Source of the DNA: a virus | Taxonomy: Duplodnaviria; Heunggongvirae; Uroviricota; Caudoviricetes | DNA length: 5,387 bases | Reading direction: 5' to 3' (one strand) | Virus record (IMG/VR): IMGVR_UViG_2534681654_000014 | Shown: positions 1-5,387 of the stretch, one piece after another | Numbering within the stretch: the stretch's first letter is position 1 | How the letters are laid out: each line of letters starts with the position of its first letter | Made by a program: the position numbers

Positions 1-3000
1 TTATGCTTCCATCGGAAACGATGATCTGGCAGCCTGAGTTCACAGATAAAACACTCTCCAGGAAACCCGGGGCGGTTCAATCTTTTCTTTTTTCTTTTGT
101 AATAGTGTCTTTTGTGTCCCCCTGTTTTGAGGGATAGCAATCCCCTAATTTGAGGGATGTTTTATCCCTCGTTTTAGGGGATTTTCCCTCGTTTTGAGGG
201 ATGTCCCTCATTTTAGGGGAACCTCCCTCGTTTTGAGGGATGCACCATTCTGAGATGTTTTTATTTGGTCCAAACATGCCGCCTTGCTGCTTGATAATAT
301 TCATTCTGACGAGTTCTAACTTGGCTTCATTGCACCGTTTGACAGGTAACTTTGTAATCTCGCTAAGTTGAGAATCGGTGATTCTGTCCATTGGTTTATT
401 CCACCCATAGGTTTTACGCAGAATGGCAAGCAGCACTTTAAACTGTCGCTTGGTCAGATCTGCGCCTGAATAAGCCTCAATCAGCATATTTGATAGTCTG
501 GCGTAACCATCATCGAGATCTGCCACATTACGCTCCTGTTCGGCAAAGTTACCTCTGCCGAAGTTGAGTATTTTTGCTGTATTTGTCATAATGAATCCTG
601 TGGATTGATCCAGTAATTCCCTCAGAATTGCATATCAATTTGCTTAGAGTCCCCGGCGGCCACCGGGGATTTTTTCTTTGTGATTCCATCCAATGCATAC
701 TTAAAAGCCCTGCTAATCGGACTGATGTCTGATGCCATTCCGAAAGCACACAAGACCGAAGCAATAAACCGCCAGTCCGTTCTGCTTATCTTCGATTCAT
801 GACAGCCAATCATCTTTGCCAGACCGCGCTGGGTAAGCGTTGACAGGTTGATGAGTAAATCAGTTTCAGCGCGATCAATTTCTCGCTGTGTTGGCTTGCT
901 GTAGCTTGCTTGTGCCATTTGTTAATTTTCCTATATTGATATTGAGTTATAGCGGCACACCCAATGGATTTGCCGCTGATGTTTGCTCACCCGGTTAGAG
1001 GTGAAAGGCCATGATGAAAGAGCGGGTACTGCTTAGGCGGCTTTGTTACTGGATGGAGGGAAAACATCATCCAAAGAACATTGGCACCCTAACTTCCTGA
1101 GGCCTTCTACGATCATTCGGCAATCGTTAAGGCCAGGAGTACGGATATTCAGCTCATAGTTGGCGATGCGGGATTGCCCCCAACCAATTGCCGAAGCTAG
1201 TACAGCTTGCGAAACTCCGATTTTTTTTCGCTGCTGGGCAATTTTGTTCATTGCGGTCTCCCTAGCATTAATCACACACCCATTACACACAATTTGTGAT
1301 TAACAGTCAACCTCAATTCGTGTACAGAGTTCAATCACGTTGCGTGTTACATTTAAGGGATGAAAACGATGCATGAAATTATCGGGGAAAGGATCAAGTC
1401 CCTTAGAGAAGCTAAAGGACTTAGCCAGGCTCAATTGGCCAAGCTTTGCGGCTGGGCTGCGCCTTCACGCCTGGGGAACTACGAGTTAGGAACAAGAAAG
1501 GTTAGCGCGGATGACGCGCTGGTTCTTGGGGCGGCACTCGGCGTATCTCCGGCAAAAATAATGTTTGGCGAGGATTCAGACGCCGTATTTCGCCAATATG
1601 AATACCCGTTATTTTCTTCAGTGCAGGCCGGGCCATTTTCGGAGGTGGGAAGCTACACAGCCAGCGATGCAAAGGCATGGGTCCCAACGACCACAAAAGC
1701 CAGCGAAAAAGCTTTCTGGCTTGAGGTGAAGGGGCATTCAATGACGGCGCCTCAGGGGGTTCGTCCAAGTTTTCCGGAAGGCATGCTGATACTCGTTGAT
1801 CCGGCTGAGCCGGTAGAGTCTGGGGATTTCTGCGTGGCTTCTGCAAATGGTGATTCAGAGGCAACGTTCAAGAAGTATGAGAAGGATGCAGGGGTTAGTT
1901 ACCTGGTACCTTTAAACCCGGCATATAGAACCCTGGATTGCGACCATAGCTGCCGCATCATAGGCAAGGTAGTTAAGGCGCAGTGGCCTGAAGAGACGTT
2001 TGGCTGATCGGCAAGGTGTTCTGGTCGGCGCATAGCTGGTAATCCAACTTTTCCCTGTTCTTTTTATGCAAATTAATCTAATGAAATTGAAAAGATTTTT
2101 ACCTATTTTGTTGGTTCAGGAGAACATAAATGAGCGATAAACAAGAAGTTTCCTTAGCACATATCAATGATGTGCTGGAGTCCAAAAATTATATTGAAAC
2201 TAATGCTGATGGGGTTGTAACCATCGGAACGGATAACAATGGCTACGAAGTTTTTAACTTCGTTTTTCTCAATAGCACCCCTGTCATCGGCCATATGAAT
2301 GGCGAAATCGCAGTGGCAGGAATGCAGCGCACTAAGGTTGCGTCCGTGACTTTAAGTAAACAGAAGGCCTTCGATTTCTATCAGTCCTTGAAAAGCATGT
2401 TCGAGGAATAAAAGCTGATGAATGCAGCTCAATCATCTTTGGATGAGGGAAAGCTAGTAATTGCTTACTCTGATAAGAATGGCTCTACAGTAGGGCTGGA
2501 ATTTTCTTCTGTAGCATCAAGCCAAGCAACGCTCTTGATGAAAGCTTGTTCTGTTGCTGCTTCAGATAAAGAAAAACGGATTGTCACATCGGTTGTGATG
2601 GATGATACTGAGATCATTCAAACAACAAGTGATGATGGAGGCGACGACATGGATAAGCGATTAGCAGTTCTTGAAGCTGAAGTTGCGCACATCAAGAGCA
2701 GCATGGCAGGAATTAAAGAGGATACCCGGAAAATATCTTCTGATTCTACTGACGCCAAAAGAGACACCGCTGTACTTTTACAGAAGAGCCTGGATTTTGA
2801 TGCTTCATTATCTAAGAAACCATCGGTTGACTACTTTGAAGCTAAATTTTCCGCTTTGGAAACCAAGATAGCAGATGTAAAAGTATGGATGCTCGGGGTT
2901 CTCTTGGCCTCGCTTGCTATGCCAACTATATTTTTCCTAATAAACTTGTACCTTAAGAAAGGTCAGTAATTTAGCAAATCCGGCCACCGAGCCGGGTTTT

Positions 3001-5387
3001 TTATTGCCCGCCGATCACTATCAGGACAGCACCTGCCCGCCGGTCCAAACTATTGATTAAATTACTATAATTCTTAATACAACTCCCATATCCCGCCATC
3101 TCGCCACCACCCCATTCGCTCGTTTTTCGAACTTTTCAGCACCCATCCTGCTGTTGCCACCGACTTAAGTAAGCAAAACCATCGCGGGTAAAACTATTTA
3201 CACAAAAAAATCATACACATAACGTGTCACACCTTTATTTTACACATTTTGTGATTGACCATTAAATCACAATATGTGACTATCATTTCCATCAGCAGGA
3301 CGCTGAGACGCCACAAGGAACAGATTGGCAGGCTCTTTAACATCGACGAACTCTCAACCTAACCGTTGAGACCAGAACTTGAGTGGTTTTGGGGATGGCG
3401 CGAATTGCAGCTGCAAGACAGCGATCGAGAAGATAAACACCTCGACGCGTCATGCGCCAAAGCCACTTAAAGGAGACCATCATGGTAACCATTGTCTGGA
3501 AAGAATCCAAAGGTACGGCAAAAAGCCGCTACAAAGCTCGCAGAGCAGAACTTATTGCCGAGCGACGCAGTAATGAAGCACTGGCGCGAAAAATTGCGCT
3601 AAAGCTCTCTGGTTGCGTCAGAGCAGACAAAGCAGCATCACTCGGAAGCCTTCGCTGCAAGAAGGCAGATGAATGCAGTGGAAGTATTTGCCTGCCAAAC
3701 GTAGCCATTTACGCGGCAGGCTACCGGAAATCAAAACAACTGACGGCGAGATGATAAATTAATTTGCTAATTACTTGTTTTTGCCATGCTTATCCTGAGC
3801 GATAAGTTCATCCATAAGACTGTCTTTCTTCCCAGCAAACCTAATGTAGCACTCATTTCTATAGCGTTCCGGGATAACAAAACGGTCGATTTCAGGATAT
3901 CCAGTAGCAGAAGGTACCCGAATAAGAAGCCCTTTTTCGAGCAATGAGATTGCTTCAGGGCTTCCCTTTTCTGTCTTTAGCTGGTTATTAGCGGCTACAG
4001 CGAATGCCAAATACGCTCTTTCTCCAAGAGTTAACGAATCAAACAAATCTTGCACGTATTTCTCTTCTTTAGATTTGCGCTTCTGAGCAGCGAATATCTC
4101 AATTCTTTCAGTCACAGCGTGATAAGCGGAATTAACAACGCCGTTAAGCACATAGCTAACGCAAAACAACAGGATGTAATACATCCAGTAATGAGGAAGG
4201 ATTTCTGGATTATGCAGGTTTATCCATTCTTTTACGCTTACAGGCATAACAATAATCAATATAATCAGGATGATTAGCATATGAATCAACTGTTTAAGTG
4301 TCATTCCTTGCAGGAAAAAATGCATTAGTTCCTGCCACCATGAGTTGTTCATCGGCGTTTCTCTTTTGCTCTCTGTAGGGGTGAATAGAGTTTATCCGAT
4401 TTCTCGCTGTAGGGGTACACGAGAACCACCGAGCCTGATGTGGTTAAAAGACAGGCATACTAATAAACACTGCACTGTGTATTCATTCCAACGAGTGAAT
4501 ACACTGAGCAATGTCGCTCGTAACTAAACAGGAGCCGACTTGTTCTGATTATTGGAAATCTTCTTTGCCCTCCAATGTGAGGGCGATTTTTTATCTGTGA
4601 GGATATGAACAGATGTCAAACATCAAAAAATACATCATTGATTACGACTGGAAAGCATCAATAGAAATTGAAATCGACCATGACGTAATGACAGAGGAAA
4701 AACTTCACCAGATTAATAATTTCTGGTCAGACTCTGAATACCGACTCAATAAACACGGCTCTGTATTAAATGCTGTATTAATCATGCTGGCGCAACATGC
4801 TCTGCTTATAGCAATTTCAAGCGACTTAAATGCATATGGTGTTGTGTGTGAGTTCGACTGGAATGATGGAAATGGTCAGGAAGGATGGCCTTCAATGGAT
4901 GGTAGCGAAGGAATAAGAATTACCGATATCGATACATCAGGAATATTTGATTCAGATGATATGACTATCAAGGCCGCCTGAGTGCGGCTTTACCGCATAC
5001 CAATAACGCTTCACTCGAGGCGTTTTTCGTTATGTATAAATAAGGAGCACACCATGCAATATGCCATTGCAGGGTGGCCTGTTGCTGGCTGCCCTTCCGA
5101 ATCTTTACTTGAACGAATCACCCGTAAATTACGTGACGGATGGAAACGCCTTATCGACATACTTAATCAGCCAGGAGTCCCAAAGAATGGATCAAACACT
5201 TATGGCTATCCAGACTAAATTCACTATCGCCACTTTTATTGGCGATGAAAAGATGTTTCGTGAAGCTGTCGACGCTTATAAAAAATGGATATTAATGCTG
5301 AAACGGAGATCAAGCAAAAGCATTCACTAACCCCATTTCCTGTTTTCCTAATCAGCCTGGCATTTCGCGGGCGATATTTTCACAGCC

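What the first reader, a model, noticed from the sequence alone, without database searches (positions are those of the whole stretch)
2008..3003. Uncharacterised two-gene cassette in the rexA/rexB slot between cI and PL: candidate prophage defence or exclusion module
Seen in sequence: two co-oriented ORFs (93 aa and 183 aa) directly downstream of cI on the same strand, 6 bp apart with an RBS embedded in the upstream gene, closed by a strong intrinsic terminator (2979-3003) just before OL/PL. The second product has an acidic linker, a heptad-like coiled-coil and a single C-terminal hydrophobic helix (tail-anchored membrane topology). The first is a small acidic, apparently soluble protein. Neither resembles RexA/RexB or any family I recognise. 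Established knowledge: in lambda this locus carries rexAB, an abortive-infection system expressed in the lysogen from PRM/PRE, and the cI-to-N interval is a variable cargo site in lambdoid prophages. Inference: this is a lysogen-expressed two-component module, plausibly a sensor plus membrane effector that excludes superinfecting phage. It is the best candidate for an undescribed system in this window.
Basis: partly seen in the sequence, partly recalled or inferred. Interest (0 to 1): 0.85.

Follow-up and report, generated by a model that had tools for sequence, protein, structure and literature searches.

The report
Repressor-linked two-gene prophage membrane module
Two small genes of unknown function sit exactly where phage lambda keeps its rexAB exclusion genes; they belong to a diversified family that always rides behind a prophage repressor, which makes them a good but untested candidate for a new phage-exclusion system in E. 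coli O157:H7 and its relatives.

Summary
The window is the immunity region of Stx1 phage VT1-Sakai (Sp15). The two ORFs are ECs2991 (93 aa) and ECs2992 (183 aa), annotated everywhere as hypothetical. The unit at 1981-3016 is a mosaic cassette. In lambda-immunity phage HK544 it replaces rexA-rexB precisely, between the last 27 bp of cI and the t_imm terminator. ORF2 has a variable N-domain, an acidic Gly/Asp linker, a 7.5-heptad coiled coil, a KKPS motif and one C-terminal TM helix. ORF1 is a soluble beta-rich protein. Neither matches Pfam, NCBIfam, PADLOC, PDB, RexA, RexB or SieA.

New here: the pair belongs to a wider two-gene family in Enterobacterales prophages. All 27 distinct upstream neighbours are repressors (cI/S24, Rac-type HTH, Mnt). 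One variant sits where P22 has sieA. ORF1 divergence tracks the ORF2 N-domain (rho 0.84), not the coiled coil or TM tail. Both proteins were detected by mass spectrometry in uninduced O157 cultures.

Function is untested. The best-supported reading is a lysogen-expressed exclusion or abortive-infection module, with a specificity unit plus a membrane-anchored effector (confidence about 0.45). It is a real, conserved, uncharacterised module. Interest is moderate rather than 0.85.

The parts
1360..2007 (+). cI repressor (HTH + S24 peptidase). It is the upstream gene of the operon; its promoters (PRM annotated at about 1321-1350, and PRE) are the presumed source of cassette transcription.
   Evidence: Pfam PF00717 3e-26 and HTH_3. 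The VT1-Sakai record annotates cI and PRM. No promoter-like site lies between cI and ORF1.
1981..2038 (+). Left mosaic junction: the last 27 bp of cI plus 31 bp of spacer, 100% identical to lambda 37253-37196. It is a shared linker that would allow cassette exchange.
   Evidence: blastn against lambda. The 35 bp after the cI stop are shared with lambda, 434, SfI and mEpX1. HK544 identity begins at 1981.
2039..2129 (+). Cassette-specific spacer containing the ORF1 RBS (AGGAG, 2118-2122).
   Evidence: Sequence reading. No promoter-like or terminator-like site was found.
2130..2411 (+). [not shown]
   Evidence: phrog_12039 7e-65. Homologues share the invariant ETNADGVVTIGT motif. An ORF1 homologue is present in 42/42 loci with a full-length ORF2 relative. 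It has distant partners by hhalign (93.6%, E 2e-7). It was detected by MS.
2403..2417 (+). ORF2 RBS (GAGGA, 2403-2407) embedded in the end of ORF1, followed by the 6-bp gap. This suggests translational coupling.
   Evidence: Sequence reading.
2418..2597 (+). ORF2 N-terminal domain (residues 1-60). It is variable and co-inherited with ORF1.
   Evidence: Alignment A1. ORF1 identity against N-domain identity gives Spearman rho 0.84. AF2 predicts beta-beta-alpha at low confidence.
2598..2654 (+). ORF2 acidic Gly/Asp linker (residues 61-79), ending in the invariant DGGD-M motif. It is a recombination breakpoint between modules.
   Evidence: 8 acidic and 0 basic residues. G74 and G75 are invariant. 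Domain identities uncouple across this point.
2649..2825 (+). ORF2 conserved coiled coil (residues 78-132, one heptad register) plus the KKPS motif (133-136). This is the family-defining core.
   Evidence: Heptad count of 11/16. AF2 helix 78-132 with pLDDT about 80. Invariant R81, L85, E86, V89, I92, K93 and K134. The core is shared with phrog_3556 and with 74 cluster representatives at E<=1e-10.
2877..2957 (+). ORF2 C-terminal transmembrane helix (residues about 154-180), with only KKGQ after it. This gives a tail-anchored topology.
   Evidence: KD19 maximum of 2.15 and no other hydrophobic segment. Three interchangeable tail types occur in the family.
2976..3016 (+). Intrinsic terminator (t_imm equivalent) and right mosaic junction. 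HK544 switches to lambda sequence inside the shared GCCGGGTTTT.
   Evidence: Terminator scan and fold at -14.9 kcal/mol. Annotated in AP000400 and EF120455. Junction comparison.

Best explanation
This is a lysogen-expressed accessory cassette carried on the repressor transcript. It encodes a two-protein module that most likely excludes or aborts superinfecting phage.

Shown: (1) It is a discrete mosaic cassette that replaces rexAB exactly in a lambda-immunity phage. (2) The family follows prophage repressors of unrelated types, and in one P22-like phage it sits in the sieA position. (3) ORF2 is a tail-anchored protein with a conserved coiled coil, and has swappable N-terminal and TM modules. 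(4) ORF1 is co-inherited with the ORF2 N-domain. (5) Both proteins are present in uninduced cultures.

Inferred: ORF1 together with the ORF2 N-domain forms a cytoplasmic specificity or sensor unit. The conserved coiled coil oligomerises and places the C-terminal helices in the inner membrane. On a phage cue, the assembly either perturbs the membrane (Rex-like abortive infection) or interferes with genome entry or an early membrane-associated step of the incoming phage. The tight translational coupling would fix the ORF1:ORF2 ratio, as in toxin-antitoxin-like abortive-infection systems.
For: Slot: HK544 has lambda cI, then this cassette, then lambda t_imm/OL, with crossover points inside the cI 3' end and the terminator. 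BstA and RexAB occupy the same repressor-downstream site, which is described as a mosaic hotspot driven by the strongly transcribed repressor promoter (PMC8585504).

Repressor linkage: all 27 distinct upstream neighbours carry repressor domains. 19 have S24, 6 have Phage_CI_repr HTH and 2 are Arc/Mnt, and their identity to this cI falls to 11-20% (and 23-25).

sieA position: in P22-like UPF_BP1 the variant pair lies between mnt and gene 16, where P22 has orf59a and sieA.

Pair integrity: all 42 loci with a full-length ORF2 relative have an ORF1 homologue, adjacent in 41. Short ORF2 forms always have another small partner, some distantly ORF1-like and others in phrog_4293 or phrog_5893.

Modularity: ORF1 identity correlates with the N-domain (rho 0.84) but not with the coiled coil (0.18) or tail (0.12).

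Architecture.

Against: No phenotype exists for any family member in the literature searched. There is no hit to 5,027 PADLOC models, and no homology to RexA, RexB or SieA.

The argument rests on position; the same slot also carries non-defence cargo in some phages. The rho = 0.84 co-variation could arise from physical linkage alone, because ORF1 adjoins the 5' end of ORF2, and the pairs compared are not phylogenetically independent.

The structure models are poor (pLDDT 62 and 50), so fold searches were uninformative. A single-TM tail anchor is not an obvious channel.

The proteomic identifications come from strain 86-24, searched against EDL933/Sakai databases at modest stringency, and spontaneous induction cannot be excluded. 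One variant sits in a tail-gene region after a KilA-N regulator rather than after a repressor.
Confidence: 0.45

Rival explanations
1. It is a lysogenic-conversion factor acting on host physiology rather than on phages. ORF2 would be a tail-anchored coiled-coil inner-membrane protein, analogous in layout to the ElaB/YqjD/YgaM stress proteins, that changes envelope or stationary-phase behaviour, with ORF1 as its regulator.
For: ORF2 has a coiled coil plus a C-terminal anchor. The products were detected in stationary-phase LB and in 48-h anaerobic rumen-fluid cultures. The cassette is carried by a pathogen's Stx1 prophage.
Against: No sequence similarity to DUF883 or any Pfam/NCBIfam family. The variable N-domain and partner, set against a conserved core, together with cassette swapping between phages, is more typical of conflict systems. 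The module occupies the rexAB and sieA positions.
Confidence: 0.2
2. It is a toxin-antitoxin-like addiction module, or a module that tunes lysogeny and induction. ORF2 would be a membrane toxin held in check by ORF1, stabilising the prophage or modulating the lysis-lysogeny decision without targeting other phages.
For: A small acidic upstream protein and a membrane protein downstream are tightly coupled (6-bp gap, embedded RBS). The pair is strictly co-inherited. The module is strictly linked to repressor genes.
Against: Lambda and HK544 share the same cI but carry different cassettes, so the module is not needed for immunity. It follows repressors with unrelated induction mechanisms: S24 autocleavage, non-cleavable Rac-type and Mnt. 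There is no similarity to known TA families. In L051 an IS91 element separates ORF1 from ORF2 without loss of ORF2, which is unexpected if unguarded ORF2 were toxic. However, its expression in that locus is unknown.
Confidence: 0.15
3. It serves the phage's own infection cycle. It would be expressed from PRE/PRM during establishment, or read through after induction, to modify the membrane. Examples would be lysis timing, or protection of replication proteins as reported for RexB.
For: The module is on the same transcript as cI, which PRE also drives early in infection (established lambda biology). ORF2 shares its coiled-coil-plus-TM layout with XhlA-type lysis accessory proteins, with weak sub-threshold hits at E about 0.08.
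Against: It is dispensable and interchangeable among closely related phages. XhlA scores are far below the Pfam cut-off (13 bits against 34.7). The proteins are present in uninduced cultures.
Confidence: 0.1
4. ORF2 is a lipoprotein processed at Cys44, as suggested in an O157 proteome paper, so the module would act in the periplasm or outer membrane.
Against: Residues 1-45 have no hydrophobic leader (maximum KD19 0.8) and contain D, E and K. Cys44 is replaced by Leu or Pro in family members. The paper itself flags 'no hydrophobic leader sequence'.
Confidence: 0.02

Closest known systems
Lambda RexA/RexB abortive-infection system
   Same: It has an identical genomic slot and transcript context: downstream of cI and closed by t_imm, with exact allelic replacement in HK544. 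Both are two genes encoding a soluble protein followed by a membrane protein, and both are made in the lysogen.
   Different: There is no sequence or profile similarity (hhalign 0.3% and 1.4%) and no PADLOC hit. RexA is 279 aa against 93 aa here. RexB is a polytopic protein without a coiled coil, whereas ORF2 has one C-terminal TM and a long coiled coil. No exclusion phenotype is known for this module.
P22 SieA (superinfection exclusion, immI region)
   Same: A distant variant of the pair occupies the mnt-to-gene-16 interval in P22-like UPF_BP1, where P22 carries orf59a and sieA. Both are inner-membrane proteins expressed from a prophage.
   Different: There is no homology (hhalign 4%). SieA is a single gene, whereas this is an obligate pair.
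BstA (Salmonella BTP1 and relatives)
   Same: Both show conserved synteny directly downstream of the prophage repressor across diverse phages and are highly expressed in lysogeny (PMC8585504).
   Different: BstA is a single large soluble protein that localises to phage DNA replication sites and has a DNA anti-BstA element. It is not related in sequence or architecture.
XhlA-type and ElaB/YqjD-type tail-anchored coiled-coil proteins
   Same: The overall layout of the ORF2 C-terminal half is the same: an amphipathic coiled coil followed by one C-terminal TM helix.
   Different: Only sub-threshold, coiled-coil-driven hits were found (XhlA 13 bits against a cut-off of 34.7). There is no DUF883 hit. 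Those proteins have no N-terminal variable domain and no obligate small partner.
PHROG families 12039, 12602, 3556, 4231, 4293 and 5893 (all 'unknown function')
   Same: ORF1 is phrog_12039 and ORF2 is phrog_12602. The ORF2 core is shared with phrog_3556, and the alternative partners fall in phrogs 4231, 4293 and 5893.
   Different: These are sequence clusters only. They carry no function and do not record that the families form pairs or are linked to repressors.

Membership tests
RexAB (lambda) | RexA homologue (soluble sensor of about 279 aa) | tested here: not met
   The ORF1 family profile against lambda RexA gives probability 0.3%. No PADLOC hit.
RexAB (lambda) | RexB homologue (polytopic membrane protein) | tested here: not met
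   The ORF2 family profile against lambda RexB gives probability 1.4%. ORF2 has a single TM.
RexAB (lambda) | Located between cI and t_imm on the repressor transcript | tested here: met
   Exact replacement of rexAB in HK544. No promoter or terminator lies between cI and ORF1.
RexAB (lambda) | Excludes T4 rII and other phages with loss of membrane potential | not testable with these tools
   This requires plating and membrane-potential assays.
SieA (P22) | Sequence homology to SieA | tested here: not met
   hhalign probability 4.2%.
SieA (P22) | Encoded downstream of mnt in immI, next to the ejection-protein genes | tested here: met
   This is true only for the distant variant in UPF_BP1, L070 and L081, not for the window's own copy.
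XhlA (PF10779) | Score at or above the Pfam gathering threshold | tested here: not met
   No hit for ORF2 at E<=1. Short relatives score 13.4-13.5 bits against a cut-off of 34.7.
Bacterial lipoprotein | Hydrophobic signal peptide plus an invariant lipobox cysteine | tested here: not met
   No hydrophobic leader. Cys44 is not conserved.
Known anti-phage defence systems (PADLOC-DB v2) | Match to any of 5,027 defence-protein models | tested here: not met
   No families matched for either protein at E<=1.
Type II-like toxin-antitoxin pair | A small upstream neutraliser tightly coupled to a downstream toxic protein, with homology to a TA family | tested here: inconclusive
   The coupling geometry is met, but there is no homology to TA families. 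Toxicity is not testable here.
ORF1/ORF2 repressor-linked pair (defined here: phrog_12039 + phrog_12602/3556) | A small partner gene immediately upstream of a gene encoding a G/D linker, the conserved M-E-x-R-x-A-x-L-E-x-x-V-x-x-I-K coiled coil, KKPS and a C-terminal TM, all downstream of a repressor | tested here: met

The most novel reading that the evidence does not exclude
The cassette is the founding example of an undescribed, widespread family of prophage exclusion or abortive-infection systems in Enterobacterales. A constant tail-anchored coiled-coil membrane effector would be combined by recombination at a Gly/Asp linker with interchangeable sensor units, each consisting of the N-domain plus a cognate small partner (ORF1-like, CxxC-type or phrog_5893-type). 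The system would be hard-wired to whatever repressor the prophage uses, so that it is made only in lysogens, including Stx-phage lysogens of E. coli O157:H7.
Probability: 0.35. Interest if true: 0.72.

Novelty: new variant of a known kind. Interest (0 to 1): 0.55.

Why it matters
If the module excludes phages, it would add a protein family with no relatives among known systems to the small set of repressor-operon defences (RexAB, BstA, SieA/SieB). It has an unusual build: a single tail-anchored coiled-coil effector with plug-in sensor units.

It is carried by the Stx1 prophage of the main O157:H7 lineage (93 of 5,426 complete E. coli genomes carry this exact allele). It could therefore shape which phages, including other Stx phages and therapeutic phages, can infect these pathogens.

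The base-pair-precise swap with rexAB also gives a clean natural experiment (lambda versus HK544, same cI) for asking what cargo in this slot does.

Even if it is not a defence system, the strict linkage to three unrelated repressor architectures is a pattern that needs an explanation.

Tried and rejected
Family libraries: Pfam, NCBIfam and PADLOC scans of both proteins and of short relatives gave only sub-threshold coiled-coil noise.

Solved structures: PDB profile searches gave only a 26-residue match to designed Ika propellers and generic coiled coils, which I rejected.

Long proteins with repeated hits to the ORF2 coiled coil turned out to be generic coiled-coil proteins and were dropped.

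ORF1 as a duplicate of the ORF2 N-domain was rejected (hhalign 3%).

Homology to RexA, RexB and SieA was rejected.

The Tai tail-assembly-inhibition systems use HK544 only as a test phage, lie upstream of the packaging genes, and are unrelated.

The Fc02 olg1/olg2 exclusion genes lie upstream of the repressor in a Mu-like Pseudomonas phage and are unrelated.

Degnan et al. 2007 and lysogen transcriptome data for Sp15 were not obtainable.

The genome-contig scan with the short-form alignment failed for lack of a conserved stretch. With A1 it found a single Symbiopectobacterium locus, so it was uninformative about wider taxonomy.

Rfam found no RNA element in or next to the cassette.

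
Full report

**Check of the observation.**
- The two ORFs are co-oriented with cI and lie 6 bp apart (AAGCTG).
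- The ORF2 Shine-Dalgarno (GAGGA, 2403-2407) lies within the last codons of ORF1. ORF1 has its own AGGAG at 2118-2122.
- The terminator is a 9-bp G+C-rich stem at 2976-2999 followed by a T-run. It folds at -14.9 kcal/mol (z = -2.2), and both the VT1-Sakai and HK544 records annotate it as the terminator of the repressor transcript.
- The 122-bp cI-ORF1 spacer contains no sigma-70-like promoter match and no terminator-like hairpin. Read-through from the cI promoters is therefore the simplest source of expression. This is an inference; I found no RNA data.
- ORF2 has an acidic linker (residues 61-79: 8 acidic, 0 basic). It has one uninterrupted heptad register over residues 78-132 (11 of 16 a/d positions are V/I/L/M/F, against a 27% background). 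It has a single hydrophobic segment at about 154-180 (KD19 2.15) followed only by KKGQ, and no N-terminal hydrophobic leader.
- ORF1 is acidic (pI 4.85) and has no hydrophobic segment.

**What the cassette is at the DNA level.** Phage HK544 has the immunity specificity and the cI gene of lambda. It carries the same two genes at 99.7% identity in place of rexA-rexB.
- Window 1981-3016 aligns to HK544 at 99.1%. The flanks (the body of cI on one side, OL/PL on the other) do not align.
- The left junction (window 1981-2038) is 100% identical to lambda 37253-37196. That is the last 27 bp of cI plus 31 bp downstream. The same post-cI stretch is shared with 434, SfI and mEpX1.
- At the right junction, HK544 changes from cassette sequence to lambda sequence inside the terminator (shared GCCGGGTTTT).
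- The finding is therefore a discrete mosaic unit bounded by two short conserved linkers, and in HK544 it is a precise allelic replacement of rexAB. The phrase 'in the rexA/rexB slot' is correct to the base pair.

**Relation to known families.**
- Neither protein matches Pfam, NCBIfam or PADLOC-DB. PGAP still calls both hypothetical in all 93 complete E. coli genomes that carry this allele, and so does every source in the protein collection.
- They fall in PHROGs 12039 and 12602, both of unknown function. The C-terminal half of ORF2 also matches phrog_3556 (1e-26).
- Profile comparisons with lambda RexA, lambda RexB and P22 SieA are negative (probabilities 0.3%, 1.4% and 4.2%).
- PDB profile searches gave nothing meaningful.
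- AlphaFold2 models built on the shallow family alignments are poor (mean pLDDT 62 for ORF2 and 50 for ORF1). Only the secondary-structure layout is usable. ORF1 is predicted as six strands plus a C-terminal helix. ORF2 is predicted as beta-beta-alpha, then a disordered linker, helix 78-132, a break at KKPS, and helix 137-182. Fold searches were accordingly uninformative.

**The family and its architecture.**
- Close homologues of both proteins occur only in Enterobacterales: Escherichia, Enterobacter, Klebsiella, Citrobacter, Cronobacter, Serratia, Pantoea and Salmonella phages.
- ORF1 is highly conserved, with an invariant ETNADGVVTIGT block.
- ORF2 is modular. It has a variable N-domain and an invariant DGGD-M-x-x-R-x-A-x-L-E-x-x-V-x-x-I-K start to the coiled coil. 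It also has a conserved A-V-x-L-Q-K ... KKPS segment and at least three unrelated C-terminal hydrophobic tails.
- An exhaustive profile search of 1.84 billion cluster representatives found 17 relatives at E<=1e-30 and 74 at E<=1e-10. Many of these are 90-150-aa proteins that keep only the Gly-rich linker, the coiled coil and the TM helix.
- Weaker hits to very long proteins are generic coiled coils.

**The pair is an obligate unit.**
- Among 67 IMG/VR loci, all 42 with a full-length ORF2 relative (down to 34% identity) also contain an ORF1 homologue. It is immediately upstream in 41. In the exception, L051, an IS91-family transposase has inserted between the two genes.
- The 25 loci with short ORF2 forms have no ORF1 HMM hit. 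Every distinct one nevertheless has another small ORF (88-150 aa) abutting or overlapping the ORF2 start.
- One group of these partners is distantly homologous to ORF1 (hhalign 93.6%, E = 2e-7 over 80 columns; phrog_4231). Others are a CxxC...CxxC type (phrog_4293) and a phrog_5893 type.
- Across 26 distinct pairs, ORF1 identity correlates with ORF2 N-domain identity (Spearman rho 0.84). It does not correlate with the coiled coil (0.18) or the tail (0.12).
- For example, L031 compared with the window shows ORF1 37%, N-domain 39%, coiled coil 81% and tail 79%. L032 shows 83%, 82%, 54% and 11%.
- Recombination therefore breaks the gene at the Gly/Asp linker and before the TM helix, while ORF1 and the N-domain travel together. 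This fits ORF1 binding the N-domain.
- It is not proof. The two are adjacent on the DNA, so linkage alone could produce the pattern, and the pairs compared are not independent.
- ORF1 is not a duplicate of the N-domain.

**Genomic position.**
- The gene immediately upstream of the pair was extracted for every distinct locus. All 27 sequences carry repressor domains: 19 have HTH plus S24 peptidase (cI/LexA type), 6 are Rac-type Phage_CI_repr HTH proteins opposite ydaS/ydaT, and 2 are Arc/Mnt ribbon-helix-helix proteins. Their identity to the window's cI is as low as 11-20%.
- In the P22-like phage UPF_BP1, the variant pair lies between the mnt-like gene and gene 16, with arc, ant and the tailspike on the other side. 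P22's own record shows that this interval holds orf59a and sieA.
- So one family occupies the positions of two classical exclusion loci, rexAB and sieA. The common denominator is a lysogenically active repressor promoter, whatever the repressor is.
- The only exception I saw is a set of Salmonella siphoviruses (29485, S107, S135, S137). There a short pair follows a KilA-N regulator about 0.9 kb upstream of the tape-measure gene.

**Expression.**
- ECs2991 appears in the iTRAQ proteome of O157:H7 strain 86-24 grown anaerobically for 48 h (PMC3936929).
- Caveats apply. Strain 86-24 is Stx1-negative and its spectra were searched against EDL933/Sakai databases. Identification thresholds were modest, and spontaneous induction cannot be excluded.

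**Most likely mechanism.**
- Shown: a repressor-operon cargo cassette encodes a soluble partner and a tail-anchored coiled-coil protein with swappable modules, and both are made in lysogens.
- Inferred: the bulk of ORF2 faces the cytoplasm, because it has no signal peptide and only four residues follow the TM helix. ORF1 and the N-domain form a cognate specificity unit. The conserved coiled coil oligomerises and clusters the TM helices.
- By analogy of position with RexAB, SieA and BstA, and given the conflict-like pattern of variable recognition parts on a constant core, the best-supported function is exclusion or abortive infection of superinfecting phage. BstA is discussed as sharing exactly this synteny and the strong repressor promoter (PMC8585504).
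- I put this at about 0.45. Whether it kills the infected cell (Rex-like) or blocks entry (SieA-like) cannot be decided from sequence.
- The rivals are lysogenic conversion of host physiology (0.2), a TA-like stabilisation or regulatory module (0.15), a role in the phage's own cycle (0.1), and the lipoprotein reading (0.02).

**Novelty and score.**
- The genes have been in databases since 2000. Their substitution for rexAB in HK544 is recorded in the 2007 GenBank entry, so the bare observation is not new.
- No functional study of any member was found.
- What appears to be new is the family-level picture: an obligate pair, a modular ORF2 with a conserved coiled-coil core, partner and N-domain co-inheritance, strict linkage to three unrelated repressor architectures, and occupancy of both the rexAB and sieA positions.
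- I class it as a new variant of a known kind (repressor-operon exclusion cargo) built from proteins unrelated to any characterised system.
- A phage specialist would find it a worthwhile, readily testable candidate rather than a surprise, because alternative cargo in this hotspot is expected. Without a phenotype, 0.85 is too high. I score it 0.55.

Noticed in passing
window 5041-5099 (+): Rfam RF01804, the lambda cIII thermoregulator RNA element, matches at 88.5 bits (gathering 50) across the cIII start.
   Followed up: no
window 3771-4352 (-): A SieB superinfection-exclusion homologue (PF14163 1e-25; phrog_1301) lies about 800 bp from the cassette. The immunity region therefore carries a known exclusion gene as well as the candidate module.
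   Followed up: partly
window 4613-4981 (+): This is a DUF2528/Ea10-like protein (PF10800 2e-47). The VT1-Sakai record annotates it as 'ssb', which looks like a name carried over from lambda Ea10 rather than a demonstrated function.
   Followed up: no
window 2245-2263 (+), inside ORF1: The terminator scan flagged an AT-rich 8-bp hairpin followed by TTTTCTC. It could be a weak internal attenuator or chance; the scan found 7 sites against 2.2 expected in the region.
   Followed up: no
L009 5552-5749, L032 4551-4754, L034 4552-4788, L043 4520-4723, L076 4314-4547 (all - strand): A conserved 65-78-aa ORF with no Pfam hit lies convergent to and immediately downstream of the pair in Rac-type and Klebsiella-type loci. 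It is absent from the window. It could be a third component or a counter-gene.
   Followed up: partly
L051 662-2977: ORF1 and ORF2 relatives are separated by an inserted IS91-family transposase (PF04986, PF14319), giving a naturally disrupted pair.
   Followed up: partly
L012 5692-6012, L031 3715-4077; L068 4406-4747 (-): Extra small ORFs with lipoprotein-like leaders lie between the pair and N in Pantoea-type loci. A YecR-like lipoprotein lies convergent to the pair in L068. This is further cargo in the same hotspot.
   Followed up: partly
L083 3053-3797 (Salmonella phage 29485; also S107, S135, S137): A short ORF2-like protein (125 aa) with a CxxC partner (phrog_4293) sits after a KilA-N regulator, about 0.9 kb upstream of the tape-measure gene. 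This was the only context seen that is not next to a repressor.
   Followed up: partly
window 2130-2969 (literature): Both products were identified in proteomes of strain 86-24, which is Stx1-negative. That strain presumably carries the cassette on another or a defective prophage. This was not verified because its genome was not examined.
   Followed up: no
window 118-241: Six O-protein iterons (ori) lie inside the O gene, as annotated in AP000400. They cause a spurious sub-threshold Rfam snoRNA hit (snR191, 27 bits against a gathering score of 46).
   Followed up: no
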